The notes beneath the pieces are model-generated. The model did not search any database. It was not told where the DNA came from and was given only the letters and a program-made list of their open reading frames with translations. A DNA stretch of 64,000 nucleotides from Spirochaetota bacterium (GTDB lineage Bacteria > Spirochaetota > Spirochaetia > Treponematales > UBA12059): NCBI GenBank assembly GCA_029547205.1, contig JAKPPT010000068.1, forward strand, positions 41,922 through 105,921, read 5' to 3'. Positions 26,433-37,259 of the stretch are shown piece after piece. Within the stretch, counting starts at the first letter, position 1; every line of letters starts with the position of its first letter. Both the position numbers and the translations under genes were made by a program.

Positions 26433-26446
26433 CCAGTACACAATGA

Positions 26447-26478
26447 CAGGGGCTATGAAATGCCCCTGTTTTTATTTT
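26447..26478. terminator. Rho-independent terminator between hpf and the convergent OMP gene
   Basis: CAGGGGC-tatgaaat-GCCCCTG followed by TTTTTATTTT. Confidence 0.7.
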
Positions 26479-26482
26479 AATC

Positions 26483-27631
26483 TTAAAAAATCATTCTCAA
26501 TCCGCCAATTACTGACCAGCTGCTTTGAGTCCAGCTTTCATAGAGTGTTCCTTGGCCACCTGCATTGAAAGTACTGCTTACATAGTACCAGAGTCCCTGA
26601 TAAGGCTTCCAGAGCACAGTCAGCACAAACAATGCAGAGCTATCGATGGGAGAATAGAGTGTTCGTGTCGTGAAACTAATTGTGTCGAAACCAAATGCTA
26701 TATCAGCCAGGATGTGTAAACCGTATGGATATCCAGACTGTCGCATCTCCTCTGACAGCTCGGTTTGTGACCAGGGTTTTTCCGGCTGAACGAGACACTC
26801 AAATCGCACACTTGTAGCATCTATACCAGGAATGAAATTTAAAATGAGGATACCGCCGCTCACGCATGGTTGCTCATACGGTATCACGCAGTTTAAACTA
26901 CTATACAGTTCTACACTACCCAGAGCACTCGCTGCAGAAATGGCAACCTTATGAGTATTGTCTGTTTCTTTATAATTCCATGCAGCTTCCAGAGCAAGCG
27001 CTTCAAAATCAGCATACCAGCGCACTCCATACATACTCTGAGTGCCAGCTGACTGTGCAATGGGCAGCATGAGATTTCCCTGTGGTGATGAAACAATGGT
27101 GTATTCCGATAGAGGTACATGCAGAACACATTCTATAAAAGAAAACACACCAACAGGCATGTAAAGTACGGCAAGCCAATCGGTCTCGTTTCTTGAAAGC
27201 GCTGAGACTGTCGTGAGCATACCTGATGAACCTGCTTCTCCAAAAAACAAGTTCCCGGCATTGAAAAATGCTCCCATACCCCATGTTATAGTATTTTTAC
27301 CTACTGTAATTCTCGGAGAAAAGCCTTCAAAAAGAGGTAATTGTGCACGTACAAAGAGCCTCGTAATATCAAAAAGCGTCGTTACCGCTCCGTTAATTGA
27401 TACAAGTGTTCCCTGTAGTGTTACTCTTCCTCGAATCGCGTCATATACTGGCGATTGAAAATCCAACTCTGAATTCGCAAATGAAAGCCAGTTAACATTT
27501 TCTAAACCCGCATAGAGAACCGCTCCTGTATCGAGAGTTATCTTAACTGTCTGTTGAGTTTGGACTGGATTTGCAACACCTAACCCAATAAGTATTATAA
27601 AACAATATAGCATTCTTTGCTTTGCACTCAT
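26483..27631 (-). CDS. Putative outer-membrane beta-barrel protein; last gene of the YtrA-ABC-LolA-like cluster
   Basis: Signal peptide after Met (MSAKQRMLYCFIILIGLG) with a GGAGG RBS; C-terminal ...GGLRMIF with a terminal Phe. Confidence 0.6.
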   Translation of the reverse strand: MSAKQRMLYCFIILIGLGVANPVQTQQTVKITLDTGAVLYAGLENVNWLSFANSELDFQSPVYDAIRGRVTLQGTLVSINGAVTTLFDITRLFVRAQLPLFEGFSPRITVGKNTITWGMGAFFNAGNLFFGEAGSSGMLTTVSALSRNETDWLAVLYMPVGVFSFIECVLHVPLSEYTIVSSPQGNLMLPIAQSAGTQSMYGVRWYADFEALALEAAWNYKETDNTHKVAISAASALGSVELYSSLNCVIPYEQPCVSGGILILNFIPGIDATSVRFECLVQPEKPWSQTELSEEMRQSGYPYGLHILADIAFGFDTISFTTRTLYSPIDSSALFVLTVLWKPYQGLWYYVSSTFNAGGQGTLYESWTQSSWSVIGGLRMIF

Positions 27632-27715
27632 TATTGCCTCCGCATATATTATCGAAACAATTCGGTGCGCAATACCATAAGTACCGCGCAACGAATTGCT
27701 AAAATAACCCTCATA

Positions 27716-28462
27716 TTACATTGATAAATTTTGCAGAGAAAATAAATTAGGATCGAGCGCTTCATTGATGCGAATAGTTTCAAGGATGAGTTCTGTTTTT
27801 GTTTGTTTTTTTAAATTATCCTGAACAACAATATGCGAAGGTATTACAAAACCTCCAATGGATGTATAGTCTTTTACGTATACTGTCTTAAGCAATTTTT
27901 CAGCAAGTGAATATGCTTCACTTTTTTTGAGCGCATAAGTTTTTTTATCTATCCAGAGCTTTTGAATTGGATAGGGAATATCATTGACTTTAGCTTTAAT
28001 TTTTATAACCCAACAGGCTGTAGTATCAATGACTTCTTCGGAAATAGATTCAATTACGTACTGATCCAATATGCTCTTCCCGCCAGTCATATCTTCATAC
28101 GACAAATCTGACCCTGCAAGAGAATTCCTCAGTGCTGCTCCCTGAAGACGAATAATTTCCTCAGCATCTGGATAATATAAATATACTGCTTTTTTTGAGC
28201 GTAATATTTTTTGACCTGATTCATCTTTACTGGTAAACACTATGAGTGAATCATCTGTTCCTCGCGACCATATTTTAAATGCTTTTTCCTGTATGCCAAA
28301 TTGATTATAAATAACTATTTTGCCTGAAGCACTCATAGTTTTAATATTCTGATTTTGTTCATATCGTCGTATAATATCTTCTGCAGACTGTGCCTGAACC
28401 AATACTGCAACAAATATAACTGCAACAGAGCTCACTACACATTTAGTAATTTTATTCAGCAT
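27716..28462 (-). CDS. LolA-like / outer-membrane lipoprotein-sorting-like periplasmic protein
   Basis: Signal peptide; 248 aa; the beta-rich pattern resembles the LolA-like proteins found next to FtsX-type ABC transporters. Confidence 0.5.
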   Translation of the reverse strand: MLNKITKCVVSSVAVIFVAVLVQAQSAEDIIRRYEQNQNIKTMSASGKIVIYNQFGIQEKAFKIWSRGTDDSLIVFTSKDESGQKILRSKKAVYLYYPDAEEIIRLQGAALRNSLAGSDLSYEDMTGGKSILDQYVIESISEEVIDTTACWVIKIKAKVNDIPYPIQKLWIDKKTYALKKSEAYSLAEKLLKTVYVKDYTSIGGFVIPSHIVVQDNLKKQTKTELILETIRINEALDPNLFSLQNLSM

Positions 28463-28500: not shown

Positions 28501-29724
28501 TTAGGTAGATCGCAGCGCCTGAATTGGCTTAATGTGTGCTGCCTGTCGGCTTGGAATGAGTACAGCACATGCTGAGACTATAATTGAATAACAAAATACA
28601 AGCACTGTATTAACGAGAGAAAGCTTGAGTCTTACAACACCAGAAACTTCCATTGATATGCCCTGCATTGCTCCAGAAAAATCTATACCATAGATCGCAA
28701 GAGGAATCCCTACAATATTGCCAGCAATCGCACCTAAAAAAGCAGCCACACATGCAATAATGAGCGCTTCAAGAAAAAACAATTTTGTAATTTCACCACC
28801 TTCCATGCCTAATGCTCCGAGCGTCCCTATTTCTTTCATGCGTTCAAATACTACCATGAGTGTTGTGTTAATTATTACGGTGCTTGCAAGAATAAAAAAT
28901 ACTATTGCTATCACAATGTAAATACCTTGAGCCATCTCAAAAAATGAGTAAATTTCGTTTATTTCTTTCCATGTTTTTATTTCATAATCACGTTGCAACT
29001 CAGGGAGCATTTTTATGGTTTGCGCCATAAGTTTTTCATCTACAGCAGGTTTTGTTTTAATGAGAATCTCTGTAACAAGGTCATCCATTCTCGCAAAATA
29101 CTGACCTACGCGGAGCGGTATATATGCTGAGGAACTGTTCAGCATTGCAACCGGGTATTCTAATACACCACAAATCCGGAAGGTCATTGCATTAGTTCCG
29201 CCCGTTTTTGTTTGAATAAGCAATGTTATTTTATCATTGAGATTTACATTCAATTTATTAAGAAGCCATTTTGTTAAAACAATTTCACGAGCATCTGGAC
29301 TTTCTGGCAGCCTGCCTTCTTTAAGGTATACATCAATATGCTGAAATTTCTTTTCTACTTCAAAATCCACAGCCTGTATAAGCAAACCGGTTTCTGTATC
29401 GCGAATGAGACCTGCTGGCAGCTTAATACGAGGTGCAATGGTATCAATTCCTTCTATACCTGCAAGTGCATTCATGCTGCTAGAAAGCGGAACACCAAGC
29501 ATGAGCGGATTCAGATGTTCATAAGCAGTATACTGCGCATTCCTTATCCGTATATTCCCCAAATAAAAATCTATAAGATTTTTTTTCATATCATCTTTCA
29601 TGCCATCGATAAGACCAAACAGCAATAGTATAGACATGGTTGCAATGAGGATAGCTATACCAGAAAGCAAGCTCCGTCTTTTATTGCGAAATATATTTCT
29701 ATAGGCCATTGTAAGCAAACTCAT
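28501..29724 (-). CDS. ABC transporter permease, FtsX/MacB family
   Basis: N-terminal TM, large periplasmic domain, and a C-terminal 3-TM FtsX domain. Confidence 0.8.
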   Translation of the reverse strand: MSLLTMAYRNIFRNKRRSLLSGIAILIATMSILLLFGLIDGMKDDMKKNLIDFYLGNIRIRNAQYTAYEHLNPLMLGVPLSSSMNALAGIEGIDTIAPRIKLPAGLIRDTETGLLIQAVDFEVEKKFQHIDVYLKEGRLPESPDAREIVLTKWLLNKLNVNLNDKITLLIQTKTGGTNAMTFRICGVLEYPVAMLNSSSAYIPLRVGQYFARMDDLVTEILIKTKPAVDEKLMAQTIKMLPELQRDYEIKTWKEINEIYSFFEMAQGIYIVIAIVFFILASTVIINTTLMVVFERMKEIGTLGALGMEGGEITKLFFLEALIIACVAAFLGAIAGNIVGIPLAIYGIDFSGAMQGISMEVSGVVRLKLSLVNTVLVFCYSIIVSACAVLIPSRQAAHIKPIQALRST

Positions 29725-29733
29725 GTTTCCCTC

Positions 29734-30981
29734 CTATTTTCGAAGACATTCAACAATTGTTTTTTTAAGTCCGCGCCTTACAGGGAAAATTGATACAAGT
29801 ACTGCAATAACCGCACCAATAAAAAAACAACTTATCATGGTCGTAATATTCCATATTCCATGAAATGCTCCACCCACTCGATAACCAATATCTATATCTT
29901 TGAGAAACATAGAAAAATCAAAACCATAGGTAACGAGATAAAAATCAAATGCAATGCCCAATACAACTCCAAAAACAGCACCAATAATTCCAATCAAGCC
30001 AGCCTCTATAAAAAATAAATTTTTTATATCTTCATCCTCCATACCCATTGCCCTGAGCATACCTAATTCACGCATTCGCTCATATACTGCCATGAGCATT
30101 GTATTAGATATCCCTACTGCTGCAATAATAAAAACAAGCAATAGAATAAAACTTGTTCCTTTTTGTTTTGCTCCTGCTATAGCAAGATAATCTTCTGCAA
30201 GTTTTTCCCAGGAATGGTACATCAGCATTGGTTGATTTAGAAGTATTTCATTTATCTTTTGCTCATTTTTATTAACATTACTCATATTAAAATTAATGAA
30301 TATATGTGTTGCACCTTGAGGCATCTCGAGCATTTCCTGCAAGTATTCTAGCGGGAGGTATACACCTGTTCTGTTGATAACAGGATCAGGAGCATCAATT
30401 ATGCCAACAACTGTCGCATCAATTGTCTGCATGTACCCATTTACTGTTCGAGTCACAATGGTTATCGGGTAACCTACATCGGCATTGAGTTTTTCTGCTA
30501 TCCAGGATCCTAATATAACTTCTGGATTTTGCTCCTTTAAAAATCTGCCTTTTGATAGTGTCTTTTGTAGTTTAAAAACTTTCTCATCACGAACCGGATC
30601 GATCCCCGTTAGTATGACTCGCATTGAACCGTCAACAGGATAGGGATCCTCGTATACTATGAGCTCGCCCTGAGCCTGAATACGAGGCGCAGCCTGTAAT
30701 CCTGCATCGGATAGCGATTGCAAGAGGACATTGCTATGTTCGATGTATTCACTAGTAGGAATTCTTTCCTTGCTATCCCAGTATGCTTTTGTTGTAATGA
30801 CACCAGATCCTGTTTCAAAATCATGCAGATTTCGTTCCGATTCCTGTTCCGCACTTTTTAACATGCTATCAACACCAATATACATTCCTATTCCCATTGC
30901 TATTGCCAGTGCAGTAATTAGAGTACGCCGCTTATAGCGCATGAGATTTTTCCATGCTAACTGACTAATAAATCTAAACAT
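29734..30981 (-). CDS. ABC transporter permease, FtsX/MacB family (second copy)
   Basis: Same architecture as the first permease; 415 aa. Confidence 0.8.
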   Translation of the reverse strand: MFRFISQLAWKNLMRYKRRTLITALAIAMGIGMYIGVDSMLKSAEQESERNLHDFETGSGVITTKAYWDSKERIPTSEYIEHSNVLLQSLSDAGLQAAPRIQAQGELIVYEDPYPVDGSMRVILTGIDPVRDEKVFKLQKTLSKGRFLKEQNPEVILGSWIAEKLNADVGYPITIVTRTVNGYMQTIDATVVGIIDAPDPVINRTGVYLPLEYLQEMLEMPQGATHIFINFNMSNVNKNEQKINEILLNQPMLMYHSWEKLAEDYLAIAGAKQKGTSFILLLVFIIAAVGISNTMLMAVYERMRELGMLRAMGMEDEDIKNLFFIEAGLIGIIGAVFGVVLGIAFDFYLVTYGFDFSMFLKDIDIGYRVGGAFHGIWNITTMISCFFIGAVIAVLVSIFPVRRGLKKTIVECLRK

Positions 30982-30983
30982 AC

Positions 30984-31661
30984 TTATCTCCTCTCGTCTG
31001 AAACGATAAGTCCATCATGTAGCTTTATAAGTCTTGTAGCATACAGCATTACCATAGGATCATGTGTTGAAAAAATAAATGTAGTGCCATGCTTTTTATT
31101 AAGTTCCAGCATGAGCTTCATTATTTCCTCTCCTGTTACTGAATCAAGATTGGCAGTGGGTTCATCTGCCAATACAAGTAATGGTCTTTTAACAAGCGCA
31201 CGCGCTATAGCTACTCGCTGCTGCTGACCTCCGGAGAGTTTAGAAGGAAGTCGGTTTTCAGCTCCTTTGAGACCTACCTCGTGCAGTATAGCAATCGTCC
31301 GGCTTTCGATTTCTTTAGCTGAAATTTGTAATAGATTGAGCGCAAGTGCAACATTTTCATAGGCAGTTAATACGGGAATGAGATTAAATGTCTGAAACAC
31401 AAAACCCAATTTTTCTCTTCTAAAACGTGCCCGCTCTTTCCCTGAAAAGGTTTGTATATCTCTGCCGTCTATTAAAATTTTGCCACTATCGGCATCATCT
31501 AAGAGCCCGATAATATTCAGTAACGTGGTTTTTCCAGAACCAGATGGACCTGCAATCGCAGTAAACTCTCCAGGTTTAATTTCTAACGAAACTCCACGCA
31601 AAGCATGTACTTCCGATTCACCTTCTCGATACGTCTTTACCAATGCATCAATTGTAATCAT
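30984..31661 (-). CDS. ABC transporter ATP-binding protein (LolD/MacB-type)
   Basis: Walker [10 protein letters not shown], signature [15 protein letters not shown], Walker B LVLADEPT. Confidence 0.9.
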
Positions 31662-31676
31662 AATCTTCCTCCTTAA

Positions 31677-32324
31677 TTAACATGTTACTGTCCTGTTGTT
31701 TGAGTCTTTGATTGACCAGTATGCTGTGCTCGTATTTCTTGTAAAGCTTTTAAGCCAAAAACATAATGCATCAACTGTTATTGGAACAGAATCCCGTGTT
31801 AGTGTTGTTTCTGCACAAAAGTCAGTAACACGGGTACGAATGTCAATGAGATCACTTACTGAATCAAAAAATGGTAAAATCAGAAAAACTCCAGGGCCTT
31901 TTACTGCTTTAAATCGTCCAAGTCTAAGAATTATTGCTCGTTCCCATTCTCGCGTCATCTGAATCATTGTGCTTGCACTGCAGCTAAAAGCATAAATGCC
32001 GATAAACAAACCGATGGTAAACGGATTTACGTTATCCATTGATAACAGTGCGCCTATAAATGCAGAACTTAAAAAAAATATAACAAAGCCAATTTCCCAG
32101 CGTCTTAACCAGAATGTCCCAGCGATAAAAAGTAAAGGAAGGGCACATGCAATACCAACCCTTGCAGAAAAGGCATTGTACCCGAACTGAATTCCCATTA
32201 CGCATATTCCTGTGAACCAGAGTAGTAAAAATACCATTATATTAAAAGCATTCCAGGAAAAATGCGGTTCAAGTATAGGTTCATGAATATTCTTTATAAG
32301 ATAATGTTTTTTTCTTTCAGCCAT
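31677..32324 (-). CDS. Membrane protein: 4-TM N-terminal domain fused to a truncated SPFH/band-7 domain
   Basis: REWERAIILRLGRFKAVKGPGVFLILPFFDSV...ITVDALCFW matches the stomatin/QmcA SPFH N-terminal half. The protein ends about 90 aa into the domain. Confidence 0.55.
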   Translation of the reverse strand: MAERKKHYLIKNIHEPILEPHFSWNAFNIMVFLLLWFTGICVMGIQFGYNAFSARVGIACALPLLFIAGTFWLRRWEIGFVIFFLSSAFIGALLSMDNVNPFTIGLFIGIYAFSCSASTMIQMTREWERAIILRLGRFKAVKGPGVFLILPFFDSVSDLIDIRTRVTDFCAETTLTRDSVPITVDALCFWLKSFTRNTSTAYWSIKDSNNRTVTC

Positions 32325-32742
32325 GTTTGCTCCCTCCTTGCTCAGTCATTAGCAATTTAATCATTTCAATTAAATCTTTATACTGTATACCTAGCTTTTC
32401 AGCTTTTTTAAGCAAATTGAAAATATCAAGCTCAAGTTCATCTACCGCTTTCTGTCGCAATTTTTGTTCTTCAGGATGAGCAGCAATATCTGCAACATAT
32501 GTTCCGCTTCCGACCTGCGTAATAACAATCCCGCGAATTTCTAATTCTGTGTATGCCTTGGCAATTGTGTTAGGATTTATCTGTAGTTTTACTGCCAGTT
32601 CACGAATTGTTGGAAGTCGTGTTCCTGGCTGGAGCTTTCCAAACTGTACAGCATGTTCAATTGCATGAATAATTTGTCTATAAAATGGCACTCCACTTTT
32701 TGTATCGAGAAGAAAAGAAAATTCATTTTCCATATCTGCCAT
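32317..32742 (-). CDS. GntR-family transcriptional regulator, short YtrA-like subtype
   Basis: wHTH motif RLPTIRELAVKLQINPNTIAKAY. Start placed at the internal Met, which has a GAGGA RBS. Confidence 0.8.
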   Translation of the reverse strand: MADMENEFSFLLDTKSGVPFYRQIIHAIEHAVQFGKLQPGTRLPTIRELAVKLQINPNTIAKAYTELEIRGIVITQVGSGTYVADIAAHPEEQKLRQKAVDELELDIFNLLKKAEKLGIQYKDLIEMIKLLMTEQGGSKHG

Positions 32743-32767
32743 AATTTTCCTCATTCAATCGAGGCTA

Positions 32768-32805
32768 TTTGTCATATTGTACTAGTTTAATAGTACAATA
32801 TGACA
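32768..32805. promoter_or_regulatory. Perfect 16-bp-arm inverted repeat, TTGTCATATTGTACTA-N6-TAGTACAATATGACAA; putative YtrA-like autoregulatory operator
   Basis: Read directly from the sequence; lies 26 bp upstream of the regulator start. Confidence 0.6.
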
Positions 32806-32831
32806 ACATTTCTGTCAAGAAACAATTTTTC

Positions 32832-32978
32832 CTAGTGTCACGAACATTGTAAAACTGATTTCTTTAGTAACTATGCGTTTGATTTTAAGAGAAAGTGCAG
32901 AATAATATTGTATTGTTGAGAGATATCTCTACTAAATAATGTAGGGATACGTTTATACACAAACTTCGTGACACTAGA
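32832..32978. repeat. Inverted pair of repeat-family cores (CTAGTGTCACGAA ... TTCGTGACACTAG) flanking a 118-bp AT-rich segment
   Basis: 32832-32845 and 32964-32978 form 13-bp perfect inverted repeats. Confidence 0.8.
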
Positions 32979-33371
32979 TACCTTTTTCTCATTCATCATT
33001 GTAATGCTACAAAATTTTGTTGACTTCAGGTAGGTCATGAGAGGTGCTCCTCTCTTCTGGTAGCGCCTTGGAGACAATCTCCTTTCGCTATTCACAGTAT
33101 TCTGCCTATAAAGGTAATGGCAGATTCTCAGCTGGTGATAAACAGGGTGCTCTCTGGTGCTATCCTAAAAACTAATATGCTATGAAAACAGGGCTGCCAT
33201 ATAACGTGGCAGTCCTGTACGCCTGTTTCATAAATTGAAATAACTGTTTTTATATTTACAACGCATAAAAACAATATAATTAAAAAATAATTACTAATAT
33301 TACCATATTGACAAAGCTCATCATATACCACATTGTTAATTTAATTTTTCAAGCATGGAGGCATTTTAAAG

Positions 33372-34502
33372 GTGAAAGGCAGCGATGTAGTAATCAGCCA
33401 TGTTTCAAAAACATTTGGCAAATTTGAAGTACTCAAAGATGTAAGTCTTTCAATAAAGAAAGGTGAATTTTTTTCTTTGCTTGGTCCATCGGGCTGCGGG
33501 AAAACAACCCTACTCAGAATAATTGCTGGATTTGAACTTCCGGACAGTGGTGAAGTGACTATTGAAGGTATCAATGTGCTTCCCCTCCCTCCTAATAAGC
33601 GGTTTGTCAATACGGTATTTCAAAACTATGCATTGTTTCCACACCTCTCTATTTTTGAGAATGTTGCGTTTTCATTGCGACTCAAAAAAACACCGGAGTC
33701 AGAACTCAAAGACAAAGTATATAAATATCTAAAGCTTGTTGAACTCACTGAACACGCCCATAAAAAGCCTGGCATGCTTTCAGGAGGACAAAAGCAGCGT
33801 GTTGCAATTGCTCGAGCGCTCATCAATGAACCAAGTGTACTCCTCCTCGATGAGCCTCTTTCAGCGCTTGATGCGAAGTTGCGACAGCAGATGCTCATCG
33901 AACTTGATGCAATCCATGACAAAATTGGTATTACCTTTATTTATGTCACCCATGATCAACAAGAAGCACTGTCAGTTTCAGATAGAATTGCTGTTATGAA
34001 TCATGGTGAAGTTCTTCAGATAGGTACTCCGCATGAGATTTACGAAAGTCCTCGCACAAAATTCGTTGCAAAATTTATTGGAGAAACAAATCTTTTTGCT
34101 GGTGTTGTAAAAGCAAGCGAACCTTACACTAATGGAACCCGGCTCCTCACCATCGATGTAGAAAATCTGGGTTTAACAAAGGTAACCTGTGATCAGGATT
34201 ATACAGTAGGCACAAAAGTAACCTATACCATTAGGCCTGAGAAAATTGTAATCAGCACAACGGAACCCGGAATGCCTGCTTCAGGAAAGCATATCAATGT
34301 TGTGCAGGGTACAGTTGATGAACCAATTTATTCGGGCTTTAGCACGAAATATTTTGTTAAGCTTACCAGTTCCTTAACATTCAAAGTTATTAAACAGCAT
34401 GCAAACTACTCTGATGAAGGTCCCGCTATAAAATGGCAGGATAAAGTATGGCTTTCATGGAGCGCTGATGATGGCTATATTGTGGGAGAAAGCCATGATT
34501 AA
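33372..34502 (+). CDS. potA: Spermidine/putrescine ABC transporter ATP-binding protein
   Basis: Walker [25 protein letters not shown], and a C-terminal TOBE domain. Confidence 0.9.
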   Translation: MKGSDVVISHVSKTFGKFEVLKDVSLSIKKGEFFSLLGPSGCGKTTLLRIIAGFELPDSGEVTIEGINVLPLPPNKRFVNTVFQNYALFPHLSIFENVAFSLRLKKTPESELKDKVYKYLKLVELTEHAHKKPGMLSGGQKQRVAIARALINEPSVLLLDEPLSALDAKLRQQMLIELDAIHDKIGITFIYVTHDQQEALSVSDRIAVMNHGEVLQIGTPHEIYESPRTKFVAKFIGETNLFAGVVKASEPYTNGTRLLTIDVENLGLTKVTCDQDYTVGTKVTYTIRPEKIVISTTEPGMPASGKHINVVQGTVDEPIYSGFSTKYFVKLTSSLTFKVIKQHANYSDEGPAIKWQDKVWLSWSADDGYIVGESHD

Positions 34503-35382
34503 AAAAAATTATGGTCTATTCTATGCTCTCCCCACAGCACTGTGGTTTACCATTTTTTTTGCTGCTCCGCTTGTGATTATCGTTATTTATAGTTTTTTAA
34601 CACGTGACACACATGGAGGAGTTGTATTTAAATTCACTCTCGATGCCTATAAATCACTCGCGAATCCTGGTTTTGGATTAATTGCATTGCGAACACTGCT
34701 TACATCAATTGCAGCAACTGTATTGATTATACTAATAGCTCTCCCATGCGGTTATTATATGGCACGAAGCAAAAATCAGACTTTCCTGCTCATGCTTGTT
34801 ATTATACCTTTCTGGACTAATTTTCTGATACGTGTTTATGCATGGATTGCCATTCTCGGTAATAATGGCTTTTTAAACAACCTGCTTCTTAAAACAAAAC
34901 TAATCAGCGATTATGTCCAATTTTTATATAATCAGGAAGCAGTTATTCTGGTTCTTGTATACATGTATCTCCCATATGCTATACTGCCATTATATTCAAC
35001 GATAGATAAATTCGATTTTGCATTGCTCGAAGCTGCACGAGACCTTGGCGCAACAAAGCCACAATCAATGTTCAAAGTACTCCTTCCTAATATTCAGAGC
35101 GGTATATTCACAGCTGTATTGTTTACATTTATTCCAATATTTGGAGCGTATGCAGTACCGCTCCTCATAGGCGGTAAAGACTCGTATATGATGGGTAACG
35201 TAATTGCAGATCAGCTTACCAAAGCGAGAAACTGGCCACTATCATCTGCAATTTCAATGGTAATTACGATGGTAACAACACTTGGAGTGCTGCTACTGCT
35301 AAGGATTCAGCGCAGGGATAAAGCAGCCAGCCAGGAAGCTCTGCTTGCCTCAAATAGAACGGAGGATAGCAATGGCAAATAA
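34495..35382 (+). CDS. potB: Spermidine/putrescine ABC permease
   Basis: 6-TM BPD_transp_1 permease; start MIKKNY with a GGAGA RBS. Confidence 0.85.
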   Translation: MIKKNYGLFYALPTALWFTIFFAAPLVIIVIYSFLTRDTHGGVVFKFTLDAYKSLANPGFGLIALRTLLTSIAATVLIILIALPCGYYMARSKNQTFLLMLVIIPFWTNFLIRVYAWIAILGNNGFLNNLLLKTKLISDYVQFLYNQEAVILVLVYMYLPYAILPLYSTIDKFDFALLEAARDLGATKPQSMFKVLLPNIQSGIFTAVLFTFIPIFGAYAVPLLIGGKDSYMMGNVIADQLTKARNWPLSSAISMVITMVTTLGVLLLLRIQRRDKAASQEALLASNRTEDSNGK

Positions 35383-36190
35383 TGTGATGTATGTTCCTGC
35401 AAAGATAATTAAAAAGCCATTTTCATTTTCAAGACTTGTATTTGTTTTTGCCATAGTTTTTCTCTTTTTACCGCTTATTGTTATTACCATCTATTCATTC
35501 AATGATCAAAAAGGCATGGATTGGAGTAAATTCTCTCTACGGTGGTATATAAAACTCTTCAGTGAATCGCCCGACCTCTGGCGCGCTTTTTGGAACAGTA
35601 TTTTTATTGCACTGACATCAGCAGTGACTGCAACTGTAATTGGAACACTCGGAGCTATAGGTGTAAACTGGTACAAATTCAGATTGAGGAATTATGTACA
35701 GGTAATTACATTTTTACCGATGATCCTTCCTGAAATTATTATCGGTGTTTCACTCTTGATATTTTTTGCTGGCGTTGGAATCAAACTAGGACTAGGCTCT
35801 ATCTATCTTGCCCATACAACGTTTAATCTTCCATTTGTATTTCTCATGGTCATGGCACGCCTTGATGAGTTTGATTACTCAATCATTGAAGCCGCAAAAG
35901 ATTTAGGCGCAACCGAAATTCAGACATTGCTCAAAGTAATAATACCTGTTTCCATACCTGGTATTATTTCTGGATTTTTAACAGCGGTAACCCTGTCACT
36001 TGAAGATTTTGTAATAACTTTTTTTGTTTCAGGGCCAGGTTCTACAACCCTGCCACTCTATATTTACTCAATGATACGGTTTGGTGTATCACCGGTAATC
36101 AATGCACTTTCTGTTGTTATGATTGTTGGAACTGTTATATTAACTTTATCATTGAGAAAATTTCTTAAATTTATCGCCGCAAATGGCTGA
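35372..36190 (+). CDS. potC: Spermidine/putrescine ABC permease
   Basis: Permease carrying the EAA-like motif ...IIEAAKDLGAT. Confidence 0.85.
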   Translation: MANNVMYVPAKIIKKPFSFSRLVFVFAIVFLFLPLIVITIYSFNDQKGMDWSKFSLRWYIKLFSESPDLWRAFWNSIFIALTSAVTATVIGTLGAIGVNWYKFRLRNYVQVITFLPMILPEIIIGVSLLIFFAGVGIKLGLGSIYLAHTTFNLPFVFLMVMARLDEFDYSIIEAAKDLGATEIQTLLKVIIPVSIPGIISGFLTAVTLSLEDFVITFFVSGPGSTTLPLYIYSMIRFGVSPVINALSVVMIVGTVILTLSLRKFLKFIAANG

Positions 36191-36224
36191 TATATAGTAT
36201 AATTAAAGCTAAGGAGATCGTACA

Positions 36225-37259
36225 ATGAAGAAAATTTTATTGCTCATTACTTCACTCTTAGTACTATTTACGTGCGTTGCGTGTGGCGGAACAAAAAAAC
36301 AAACACTTTATATTTACAACTGGACATACTACACGCCCGATTCAGTAATTGAAAAATTTGAAAAAGAATATAATGTAAAAGTTGTCTATGACAACTTTGC
36401 TTCTAATGAAGAAATGTATGCAAAATTAAAGGCTGGAGGAACTGGTTACGATATTGTTTTTCCTTCAGGTGATTATGTATCGATTTTAATAAAAGAAGGC
36501 ATGGCTGAAAGAATAAACAAAGAGCTCATACCCAATCTCCAATACATCAATCCTGGAATACTCGAAAAAGCCACCTATGATCCACAAATGGAATACAGTG
36601 TTCCTTATTACTTTGGCGCAGCAGGCATTGCTGTCAATACGAAAAAAGTGTCAAATTTTGAAAAAAGCTGGGCTATTTTTTCACGAAAAGATCTAAAAGG
36701 TAAAATGACTATGCTCGACGACATGCGTGAAGTAATGGGTGATGCGCTTGCTTTCCTCGGATATTCTGTCAATACAAAAAACCCCGTTGAAATTGAACAA
36801 GCAAAAGAACTAATTAACAATGTATGGAAACCTAACCTCCTTAAGTTTGATGCTGAAGCATTTGCAAAAGCCTTTGCTGCAGGGGAAATCTGGGTCGCTC
36901 AGGGTTATGCTGAAAATATTTTTGCCGAGCTCCCGGAAACGGAATGGAGCAACGTTGCTTTTTTTATACCACAGGAGGGAGGACCATCATATATCGACAG
37001 CATGGTTATTCTTAAAGGATCAAAAAATCTGGAACTTGCACACAAGTTTATCAATTTTATTCATCGTCCAGAAATTTACGCAGAGTTTTGTGACACATTT
37101 GGATTCCCTATTACTGTAAACATGGCAGCATGTTCGTATCAAAAGCGTACACCACTCTATAATGGCAGTGAACTATTAGGGACACAACTCAAAGAAGACC
37201 TTGGGGACAGCCTCGATCTCTACAATAAAGCATGGGAAGAAATAAAAATTGGCGGATAA
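36225..37259 (+). CDS. potD: Spermidine/putrescine-binding periplasmic lipoprotein
   Basis: Lipobox FTCVAC; PotD/PotF-type solute-binding protein fold pattern. Confidence 0.85.
   Translation: MKKILLLITSLLVLFTCVACGGTKKQTLYIYNWTYYTPDSVIEKFEKEYNVKVVYDNFASNEEMYAKLKAGGTGYDIVFPSGDYVSILIKEGMAERINKELIPNLQYINPGILEKATYDPQMEYSVPYYFGAAGIAVNTKKVSNFEKSWAIFSRKDLKGKMTMLDDMREVMGDALAFLGYSVNTKNPVEIEQAKELINNVWKPNLLKFDAEAFAKAFAAGEIWVAQGYAENIFAELPETEWSNVAFFIPQEGGPSYIDSMVILKGSKNLELAHKFINFIHRPEIYAEFCDTFGFPITVNMAACSYQKRTPLYNGSELLGTQLKEDLGDSLDLYNKAWEEIKIGG

What the first reader, a model, noticed from the sequence alone, without database searches (positions are those of the whole stretch)
31677..32324. 4-TM module fused to a half SPFH (band-7) domain inside an ABC/FtsX/LolA-like export operon
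After four TM helices, residues 125-190 align convincingly with the N-terminal half of stomatin/QmcA SPFH domains (RLGRF...PGxxFxxPFxD...VD). The ORF then stops about 25 aa later, 15 nt before the ABC ATPase gene. Full SPFH domains are at least 160 aa. This is therefore either a truncation by deletion or an unusual short scaffold variant. It is the second gene of the YtrA-like regulated operon, and I do not know of SPFH proteins being described in that context.
Basis: partly seen in the sequence, partly recalled or inferred. Interest (0 to 1): 0.5.

Follow-up and report, generated by a model that had tools for sequence, protein, structure and literature searches.

The report
Deletion-truncated stomatin-like gene remnant
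The "half SPFH domain" is real, but it is what remains of a normal 371-residue membrane stomatin-like gene after a 479-base out-of-frame internal deletion, so it is a broken gene in an otherwise intact spirochaete export operon and not a new short scaffold protein.

Summary
The ORF at 31677..32324 (minus strand, 215 aa) has four TM helices followed by a significant but partial Band_7/SPFH match (residues 124-190 = profile positions 3-68 of 176, E 7e-11). It stops 15 nt before the ABC ATPase gene.

All uncut orthologues in 80 Spirochaetota species loci are about 355-377 aa, with four TM helices and a full stomatin-like SPFH region. Compared with the closest orthologous operons, the window lacks exactly 479 nt between two copies of TTTGGCTT. 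The 72 nt after the junction, read in the +1 frame, still encode the ancestral C-terminus (FGLKALQEIRAQHTGQ...*). The product therefore lacks the rest of the SPFH domain, the long helices and the C-terminal region that build stomatin cages.

The same 215-aa protein occurs on at least 20 contigs from many metagenomes. The deletion is therefore real and common, possibly fixed, in this uncultured Treponemataceae-like species.

The gene order is conserved. A YtrA-type GntR gene lies directly upstream in 72/72 assessable loci, a MacB/Lol-type ABC ATPase directly downstream in 60/69, and a LolA-like gene in 41/45. I found no description of this operon, which is mildly interesting. The flagged feature itself is an ordinary gene remnant.

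The parts
32769..32818 (-). Promoter-like site (-35 TTGACA starting at 32818, 17-nt spacer, -10 TACTAT ending at 32790) overlapped by a perfect palindrome at 32769-32806 (16-nt arms, 6-nt spacer: TTGTCATATTGTACTA / TAGTACAATATGACAA). This is the probable operator of the YtrA-type repressor.
   Evidence: The core TGTACTA-N6-TAGTACA is conserved upstream of the GntR gene in L001 and L004. A long palindrome with GT/AC far from the centre is the described YtrA motif type (PMC4494728). Binding was not tested.
32317..32754 (-). YtrA-type GntR-family regulator, 145 aa. Its stop codon overlaps the start of the SPFH ORF by 8 nt (ATGGCTGA).
   Evidence: Pfam GntR PF00392, E 6.6e-16, residues 25-87. Sub-threshold NCBIfam matches to PmtR (residues 14-139 on 3-124/125) and Rv1152. 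The overlap is seen. The same 8-nt (L001) or 11-nt (L004) overlap occurs in the orthologues.
31677..32324 (-). Truncated 4TM-stomatin-like ORF (215 aa). It is the remnant of an ancestral gene of about 371 aa.
31962..32261 (-). N-terminal four-helix transmembrane module (residues 22-121). The positive-inside rule predicts N-terminus in, so the SPFH part would face the cytoplasm.
   Evidence: Hydropathy and loop charges. The AF2 model of orthologue P0002 has helices 26-46, 54-72, 76-96 and 101-120 at pLDDT about 90 or more. The topology is inferred.
31755..31955 (-). Retained N-terminal third of the SPFH domain (residues 124-190: EWERAIILRLGRF...VDALCFW). It corresponds to human stomatin residues of about 57-125.
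   Evidence: Pfam positions 3-68 of 176. Alignment of the orthologue to stomatin chains. Numbering is anchored on C53 and C87 named in PMC12344292.
31752..31759 (-). Deletion junction: a single copy of the 8-nt repeat TTTGGCTT. In full-length genes this repeat occurs twice, 479 nt apart, in different reading frames (within CFWL and within FGL).
   Evidence: The 5' copy is TTTTGGCTT in L001. The 3' copy is TTTGGCTT in L004 and TTTGGACT in L001. The BLAST segments against L001 overlap at window 31752-31767.
31685..31759 (-). Remnant of the ancestral 3' end. In the +1 frame relative to the present ORF it reads FGLKALQEIRAQHTGQSKTQTTGQ*, and the ancestral stop codon is at 31685-31687.
   Evidence: Compare the C-terminus of P0002, FGLKALQELRSQHPGQSSSGQSK*.
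31677..31751 (-). Out-of-frame tail of the present ORF (KSFTRNTSTAYWSIKDSNNRTVTC*). It has no homologue in any relative.
30984..31661 (-). ABC ATPase (LolD/MacB/FtsE-like), 225 aa, with its own AAGGAGG ribosome-binding site in the 15-nt spacer.
   Evidence: Pfam ABC_tran, E 1e-37. Best NCBIfam match is LolD at 226 bits, below the 307.75 cut-off. Sequence.
29734..30981 (-). FtsX/MacB_PCD permease 1 (415 aa).
28501..29724 (-). FtsX/MacB_PCD permease 2 (407 aa).
27716..28462 (-). LolA_like / TP_0789-like periplasmic protein (248 aa) with an N-terminal signal-like segment.
   Evidence: Pfam PF17131, E 1.5e-47. Named TP_0789-like.
26483..27634 (-). Last operon gene (383 aa from the ATG at 27634; the listed ORF extends to 27691). 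It has an N-terminal signal-like segment and ends ...GGLRMIF. It matches no family.
   Evidence: No Pfam or NCBIfam hit. Only 4 homologues were found. The AF2 model is unusable at pLDDT 31. An outer-membrane location is a guess from the termini only.

Best explanation
The ORF is a deletion-derived remnant of a spirochaete gene for a stomatin-like (slipin-type) SPFH protein anchored by four TM helices. A single 479-nt deletion occurred between two 8-9-nt direct repeats (TTTGGCTT). This pattern is typical of replication slippage or microhomology-mediated deletion (inferred). It removed codons of about 191-349 and shifted the frame. The present product keeps the 4-TM anchor and only the first third of the SPFH domain, followed by 24 unrelated residues. 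It lacks the helical part of the SPFH domain, the long wall and cap helices and the C-terminal segment. In solved stomatin, QmcA and HflK/C structures these parts build the closed oligomeric cage, so the product most likely cannot act as an SPFH scaffold (inferred loss of function). The rest of the operon is intact: the autoregulated YtrA-type promoter/operator, the GntR gene, the MacB/Lol-type ABC ATPase, two FtsX permeases, the LolA-like protein and a last secreted protein. The ABC gene keeps its own ribosome-binding site. The exporter is therefore probably still made, now without its SPFH partner. The deletion is shared by every assembly of this species that I could find.
For: 1. Homologues are 355-377 aa. 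The closest is P0002, 371 aa, 82% identical over residues 1-191.
2. Orthologous operons L001-L004 have the same gene order with a full-length SPFH gene.
3. DNA and protein alignments lose homology exactly after CFWL.
4. BLAST against L001 gives two collinear segments that leave out L001 6730-7194.
5. The missing length is 479 nt against both L001 and L004, and the junction carries one copy of TTTGGCTT.
6. The +1 frame after the junction reads FGLKALQEIRAQHTGQSKTQTTGQ*, which is the ancestral C-terminus.
7. In 80 species-level loci, every SPFH gene not cut by a contig end reaches residue 343 or beyond of the 371-residue reference, median 360.
8. Full-length P0002 residues 120-323 align to human stomatin at E 3e-32 and to QmcA at E 3e-24. 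Its model matches stomatin, HflK/C, QmcA and prohibitin chains. The deleted span holds helices 195-250, 267-306 and 311-327 of the model. PMC12344292 assigns cage assembly to inter-subunit contacts and the C-terminal beta-barrel.
9. The exact 215-aa protein is indexed in 44 blocks of the collection and was read on 20 contigs from JGI, ENA, Logan and NCBI samples. Two further assemblies carry the same deletion plus G145R, a change at a glycine invariant in 52 family members.
10. A second deletion remnant, the last 28 codons of a peptidase M10 gene, lies about 800 nt away. Deletional gene loss in this lineage is therefore not unique to this gene.
Against: The remnant ORF is still open, keeps its ribosome-binding site and its start overlapping the GntR stop codon, and is identical in most strains. 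dN/dS of residues 1-190 against L001 is 0.107, like the neighbouring genes. That value mostly reflects history before the deletion, so it cannot separate a young pseudogene from a selected short protein. Strain diversity is too low (1% or less) and my sampling of variants was biased, so relaxed selection could not be tested. Expression and protein stability are unknown. A 4-TM protein with a short beta-sheet stub could retain some activity, for example contact with the regulator or the transporter.
Confidence: 0.85

Rival explanations
1. A functional short variant. After the deletion, the 4-TM module with a stub of the SPFH domain was kept by selection, for example as a membrane partner of the YtrA-type regulator or of the ABC transporter.
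For: The ORF is open and keeps its ribosome-binding site and its start overlapping the GntR stop codon. The identical protein is found on at least 20 contigs from many samples. There were no substitutions in the ORF among 10 contigs, although these were chosen for protein identity. dN/dS against L001 is 0.107.
Against: The new tail is an out-of-frame reading of the old 3' end, with no homologue. No other species has a short form among the SPFH genes not cut by a contig end. Sister strains carry G145R at an invariant glycine, and the other known variants (K6N, F47L, Y49H) are all non-synonymous. The low dN/dS is dominated by time before the deletion. Strain identity simply reflects 1% or less divergence.
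Confidence: 0.1
2. An assembly or sequencing artefact: a collapsed repeat or chimeric join created a false deletion.
For: The junction lies at a short direct repeat, which could in principle mislead an assembler.
Against: An 8-nt repeat is far below assembler k-mer sizes. The same junction is present in independent assemblies made by different pipelines (JGI, ENA/MGnify SPAdes, Logan, NCBI MAGs), on contigs up to 120 kb in the loci read and 352 kb on record.
Confidence: 0.01
3. An adaptive regulatory knock-out. Loss of the SPFH partner was selected because it changes how the YtrA-type repressor controls the exporter, for example constitutive expression in the habitat where this species is found. 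This refines the main explanation and does not contradict it.
For: GntR and the SPFH gene are an obligate pair with overlapping stop and start codons: 72/72 loci, and sometimes without the ABC genes. YtrA-type regulators have a minimal C-terminal domain (PMC4494728). The deletion allele is shared by every assembly of the species found, from many samples.
Against: There is no direct evidence that the SPFH protein talks to the regulator. Spread by drift or hitch-hiking explains the data equally well. A neighbouring peptidase gene was also lost by deletion, which points to general gene decay.
Confidence: 0.15

Closest known systems
Stomatin / prokaryotic stomatin-like proteins (slipins): human stomatin (PDB 9oh9, 9z7u), P. 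horikoshii PH1511 (3bk6), E. coli QmcA (8z5g)
   Same: The full-length orthologue aligns over residues 120-323 with stomatin at E 3e-32, covering the SPFH domain, wall/cap helices and C-terminal region, and its model matches these chains. The window ORF keeps the first conserved block (EWERAIILRLGRF...PG...VD).
   Different: The window copy has only profile positions 3-68 of 176 and none of the oligomerising helices. The family anchor is four predicted TM helices instead of a hairpin or a single TM helix. No NfeD partner gene is adjacent, and the partner gene is a GntR regulator. The SPFH part is predicted to be cytoplasmic, whereas it is described as periplasmic in QmcA and HflK/C (my knowledge).
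HflK/HflC (FtsH modulators)
   Same: Same SPFH superfamily, with weak NCBIfam matches.
   Different: Scores are far below the equivalog cut-offs (56.9 against 159.4 bits for the full-length orthologue). No FtsH gene is linked, and the gene is single rather than a K/C pair.
YtrA-subfamily GntR operons with ABC transporters (B. subtilis ytrABCDEF, S. aureus pmtR-pmtABCD, M. tuberculosis Rv1152)
   Same: A short GntR regulator as first gene, a long palindromic operator over the promoter, and a single operon encoding an ABC exporter.
   Different: An SPFH membrane protein sits between the regulator and the transporter. The transporter is of the MacB/Lol (FtsX) type, with a LolA-like protein.
Lol/MacB type VII ABC systems, and the Borrelia BBJ23-BBJ29 cluster (PMC13078400)
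   Same: An ABC ATPase, FtsX/MacB_PCD permeases and a LolA-like periplasmic protein, followed by a putative outer-membrane component, in a spirochaete.
   Different: There are two different permease genes here, against a homodimer in Borrelia. There are no TPR proteins, and the last gene is not recognisably Omp85. Neither the Borrelia paper nor my other searches mention an SPFH or GntR gene in such clusters.

Membership tests
SPFH / Band_7 (PF01145) | Significant match to the family HMM | tested here: met
   42.9 bits against a gathering score of 23.6, E 7.2e-11.
SPFH / Band_7 (PF01145) | Complete domain (about 176 profile positions: beta-sheet plus helical part) | tested here: not met
   Only profile positions 3-68 are present. 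The orthologues have the whole domain.
Stomatin-like cage formers (stomatin, QmcA, HflK/C) | Long wall/cap helices and a C-terminal segment that close the oligomeric ring | tested here: not met
   Residues 191-349 of the ancestral protein are deleted. They are present in orthologue P0002. Their role comes from PMC12344292.
Prokaryotic slipin-NfeD operon | Adjacent NfeD-family partner gene | tested here: not met
   The neighbours are GntR and an ABC ATPase. No NfeD Pfam hit was found in the operon proteins or in the N-terminal module.
YtrA subfamily of GntR regulators (neighbouring gene) | GntR winged-helix N-terminus, a very short C-terminal domain, a long palindromic operator, and an operon with an ABC transporter | tested here: met
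   PF00392 at residues 25-87 of 145 aa. A 38-bp perfect palindrome lies over the -10 region and is conserved in orthologues. The criteria are from PMC4494728. DNA binding was not tested.
Type VII (MacB/LolCDE-like) ABC transporter (neighbouring genes) | FtsX-type 4-TM permease with a MacB periplasmic core domain, plus a separate ATPase | tested here: met
   PF02687 plus PF12704 in both permeases, and ABC_tran in the ATPase.
LolCDE lipoprotein-release system proper | Equivalog-level match to LolC/LolE/LolD | tested here: not met
   LolD 226 bits against a cut-off of 307.75. lolCE 89-98 bits against a cut-off of 362.
Pseudogene / gene remnant | Loss of a large conserved part and a frameshift relative to orthologues in the same genomic position | tested here: met
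   A 479-nt out-of-frame internal deletion, with the ancestral C-terminus readable in the +1 frame.
Pseudogene / gene remnant | No functional product (no expression, or relaxed selection) | tested here: inconclusive
   dN/dS of 0.107 reflects history before the deletion. Strain variants are few and the sampling was biased. Expression cannot be tested with these tools.

The most novel reading that the evidence does not exclude
In Spirochaetota, the YtrA-type GntR regulator and the 4TM-stomatin-like protein form an obligate two-gene membrane-sensing module. The genes have overlapping stop and start codons, pair in 72/72 loci, and sometimes stand alone without the ABC genes. In this reading, a cytoplasm-facing SPFH assembly controls the minimal repressor and through it a Lol/MacB-like envelope exporter. 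The window species would then be a natural knock-out of the SPFH component, common and possibly fixed in the wild, showing that it is dispensable or that losing it rewires the operon.
Probability: 0.25. Interest if true: 0.5.

Novelty: new member of a known kind. Interest (0 to 1): 0.2.

Why it matters
The flagged feature matters little in itself. It is a recent loss-of-function deletion in one uncultured spirochaete, and public records that call it "SPFH domain-containing protein" should flag it as truncated.

The work did bring out something modestly useful. A conserved operon exists across Treponema-like spirochaetes and I found no description of it. It comprises a YtrA-type repressor, a 4TM stomatin-like protein, a MacB/Lol-type ABC transporter, a LolA-like protein and a secreted protein. 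The window species offers a natural SPFH-null allele of that operon. This could help anyone studying what bacterial SPFH scaffolds do for envelope transporters, or how effector-domain-less YtrA regulators sense signals.

Tried and rejected
1. I looked for a full-length allele in the same species. An exact-pattern scan of metagenome contigs with the 24-mer just 5' of the junction found nothing. A protein-guided scan found only one distant relative. The protein index holds only deleted alleles for this species. Contig L089, 99% identical in the last operon gene, does not reach the SPFH locus.
2. I considered P0017 (212 aa) as an independent short form. Its contig L088 shows two overlapping Band_7 ORFs, so it is a simple frameshift split and not the same event.
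3. I tried to test for relaxed selection with strain polymorphism. Ten contigs were chosen by identical protein, which biases the sample, and show 0 SNPs in the ORF against 6 in the ABC gene. L100 carries single-base indels in several pot genes, which are probably assembly errors. In L101, 7 of 15 mismatches cluster at the contig end and are unreliable. I draw no conclusion from these data.
4. The structure prediction of the last operon gene, from 5 sequences, failed at pLDDT 31, so I make no fold claim.
5. The Foldseek search of the orthologue model gave no significant match for the 4-TM module. Only the SPFH part matched.
6. Literature searches for TP0789, for SPFH with GntR and ABC transporter in spirochaetes, for stomatin with MacB and LolA-like, for YtrA with SPFH, and for TDE0703-0705 found no description of this operon.
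7. A second SPFH copy, or a displaced piece of the deleted segment elsewhere in the 64-kb window, was not found.

Full report
**Observation**

The ORF at 31677..32324 lies on the minus strand and encodes 215 aa.
- Pfam Band_7/SPFH (PF01145) matches residues 124-190 to profile positions 3-68 of 176, at E 7.2e-11 and 42.9 bits against a gathering score of 23.6.
- Hydropathy gives four hydrophobic segments between residues 22 and 121. The AlphaFold2 model of the full-length orthologue places four helices at 26-46, 54-72, 76-96 and 101-120 with pLDDT about 90 or more.
- The ORF ends 25 residues after the homology stops, 15 nt before the ABC ATPase start.

**Gene context**

All the genes below are on the minus strand.
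- A 145-aa GntR regulator at 32317..32754. Its stop codon overlaps the SPFH start by 8 nt.
- The SPFH ORF.
- An ABC ATPase at 30984..31661. Its best NCBIfam matches are LolD, DevA and FtsE, all below cut-off.
- Two FtsX+MacB_PCD permeases at 29734..30981 and 28501..29724.
- A LolA_like/TP_0789-like protein at 27716..28462.
- A family-less protein at 26483..27634 with a signal-like N-terminus, ending in ...RMIF.

Upstream of the GntR gene there is a TTGACA-17-TACTAT promoter-like site. It is overlapped by a perfect palindrome with 16-nt arms at 32769-32806. The core TGTACTA-N6-TAGTACA is conserved in two orthologous operons. This fits the published description of the YtrA subfamily: a short C-terminal domain, long palindromes with GT/AC far from the centre, and a single operon with an ABC transporter (PMC4494728).

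**What the ORF is**

A protein search returned 297 relatives, essentially all from Spirochaetota. Almost all are 355-377 aa and have a Band_7 domain. The closest full-length one, P0002, is 371 aa and 82% identical over query residues 1-191.

Contigs encoding P0002 (L001-L003) and P0004 (L004) have the same gene order as the window, with a 371-373-aa SPFH protein in second position. The order is GntR, SPFH, ABC, FtsX, FtsX, TP_0789-like, and a family-less protein of about 382 aa.

The evidence for a single deletion event is as follows.
- Protein and DNA alignments lose homology exactly after CFWL.
- BLAST of L001 against the window gives two collinear segments, L001 5663-6730 and 7194-12478. 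They abut and overlap at window 31752-31767.
- Against both L001 and L004 the missing stretch is 479 nt, which is not a multiple of three.
- The junction carries one copy of TTTGGCTT. Full-length genes have this repeat twice: once inside the CFWL codons (TTTTGGCTT in L001) and once inside the FGL codons (TTTGGCTT in L004, TTTGGACT in L001).
- Read in the +1 frame, the 75 nt from the junction give FGLKALQEIRAQHTGQSKTQTTGQ*. This matches the C-terminus of P0002, FGLKALQELRSQHPGQSSSGQSK*.

So the tail of the present ORF (KSFTRNTSTAYWSIKDSNNRTVTC) is an out-of-frame reading of the ancestral 3' end. The feature is the product of one microhomology-flanked internal deletion. The deletion mechanism, slippage or microhomology-mediated repair, is inferred from the repeat.

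**Artefact or real?**

The deletion is real.
- L005 (ENA ERZ795058) and L006 (JGI 3300009715) carry the same junction at 99.84% identity.
- The exact 215-aa protein is indexed in 44 blocks of the collection. It was read on 20 contigs from JGI, ENA, Logan and NCBI assemblies. The longest locus contig read was 120 kb, and a 352-kb contig is on record. NCBI names it "SPFH domain-containing protein".
- I found no full-length allele of the same species.

The species has no representative among 185,579 GTDB species genomes. The nearest is an uncultured Treponemataceae MAG. NCBI labels the MAGs that carry the protein Spirochaetia or Spirochaetales bacterium.

**What was lost**

Full-length P0002 residues 120-323 align to human stomatin at E 3e-32, to PH stomatin at 5e-30 and to E. 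coli QmcA at 3e-24. Its model retrieves stomatin, HflK/C, QmcA and prohibitin chains at probability 1.0.

Anchoring the alignment on stomatin C53 and C87 (named in PMC12344292), the window product ends at about stomatin residue 125. It keeps only the first beta-strands of the SPFH domain. The deletion removes model helices 195-250, the long helix 267-306, helix 311-327 and the following segment. These correspond to the helical part of SPFH, the wall and cap helices, and the C-terminal strand. PMC12344292 shows that this strand closes the 16-mer cage. Loss of scaffold function is therefore the most likely consequence. This step is inferred and was not measured.

**Age and selection**

dN/dS of residues 1-190 against L001 is 0.107, the same as the neighbouring genes (0.055-0.139). 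Most of the divergence therefore happened while the gene was constrained, which means the deletion is recent relative to the split from the L001 species (dS about 0.95).

Strain-level data are thin.
- L005, L006 and P0128 carry G145R, at a glycine that is invariant in 52 family members.
- The other protein variants are K6N, F47L and Y49H.
- No synonymous change was seen in the ORF in the contigs examined.

The pattern hints at relaxed constraint. However, the variants were found through protein clustering, so the sample is biased and I do not rely on it.

A second remnant lies close by. Window 33089-33172 (+) encodes only the last 28 codons, at 93% identity, of the 285-aa peptidase M10 gene that L001 carries between potA and GntR. 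Deletional loss has therefore happened more than once in this stretch.

**Is the context conserved?**

A genome survey returned 80 Spirochaetota species loci. They include Treponemataceae, Breznakiella homolactica, Treponema primitia and many termite-gut and sediment MAGs. By tblastn with the window's proteins:
- a GntR gene lies directly upstream in 72 of 72 assessable loci;
- an ABC ATPase lies directly downstream in 60 of 69;
- a LolA-like gene lies within 6.5 kb downstream in 41 of 45;
- every SPFH gene not cut by a contig end reaches residue 343 or beyond of the 371-residue reference (median 360).

In some termite-gut Treponema MAGs the GntR-SPFH pair is followed by unrelated genes, MurG-like in L037 and AIR-synthase-like in L053. 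The tightest partner of the SPFH protein is therefore the regulator and not the transporter.

The positive-inside rule predicts that the SPFH part faces the cytoplasm (inferred).

I found no paper describing an SPFH gene in such an operon. The nearest described system is the Borrelia BBJ23-29 cluster, which has a MacB-like ABC transporter, a LolA-like protein and an Omp85-like barrel, and is proposed to move a non-polar ligand to the outer membrane. That paper mentions neither SPFH nor GntR (PMC13078400).

**Mechanism and verdict**

Shown:
- the partial domain;
- the 479-nt out-of-frame deletion at a direct repeat;
- the ancestral tail;
- the occurrence in many assemblies;
- the conserved operon.

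Inferred:
- the deletion arose by slippage or microhomology-mediated repair;
- the product cannot form an SPFH cage;
- the operon downstream is still expressed from its autoregulated promoter, with the ABC gene using its own AAGGAGG site.

Unknown:
- whether the 4-TM stub is made and does anything;
- what the full-length protein does for the regulator or the exporter.

The finding is an ordinary gene remnant inside a conserved operon for which I found no description. I score interest at 0.2.

Noticed in passing
window 33089-33172 (+), within the 32819-33372 intergenic stretch: Only the last 28 codons (93% identity) of a 285-aa Peptidase_M10/M57 gene survive here. The related genome L001 has the whole gene (L001 4314-5171) between potA and the GntR gene. 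About 1.26 kb in L001 corresponds to about 270 nt of unrelated sequence in the window. This is a second deletion remnant next to the SPFH one.
   Followed up: partly
L037 7598-10331; L053 5105-8049 (also L028, L039, L071, L077, L079, L083): In several termite-gut Treponema MAGs the GntR-4TM-SPFH pair stands alone and is followed by unrelated genes (MurG-like glycosyltransferase, AIR-synthase-related) instead of the ABC/FtsX/LolA-like genes. This suggests the pair is a module in its own right.
   Followed up: partly
window 26483-27634 (-): The last operon gene encodes a 383-aa protein with a signal-like N-terminus and a C-terminal ...GGLRMIF. It has no Pfam or NCBIfam match and only four homologues among 5.8 billion proteins. 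The AF2 model was unusable (pLDDT 31). It could be an outer-membrane component, but nothing shows that.
   Followed up: partly
L088 77-1221: In another spirochaete lineage (JGI 3300045276) the orthologous SPFH gene is split into two overlapping Band_7 ORFs (212 and 187 aa). This is a frameshift or a sequencing error, and is independent of the window's deletion.
   Followed up: partly
L100 (Logan SRR7903765_643322), whole contig: This contig is from the same species at 99.1% identity and carries five single-base indels that split potA, the pot permease genes and the SPFH remnant. These are probably assembly errors and not extra pseudogenes.
   Followed up: no
window 26445-26470: A GC-rich hairpin (9 pairs) followed by a T-run lies between the end of the operon and the convergent Ribosomal_S30AE-type gene seen in related loci. 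It may be a shared or bidirectional terminator.
   Followed up: no
window 33372-37259 (+): A complete potABCD-like spermidine/putrescine ABC importer operon is divergently placed from the GntR operon. It is syntenic with L001 at about 84% nucleotide identity.
   Followed up: no
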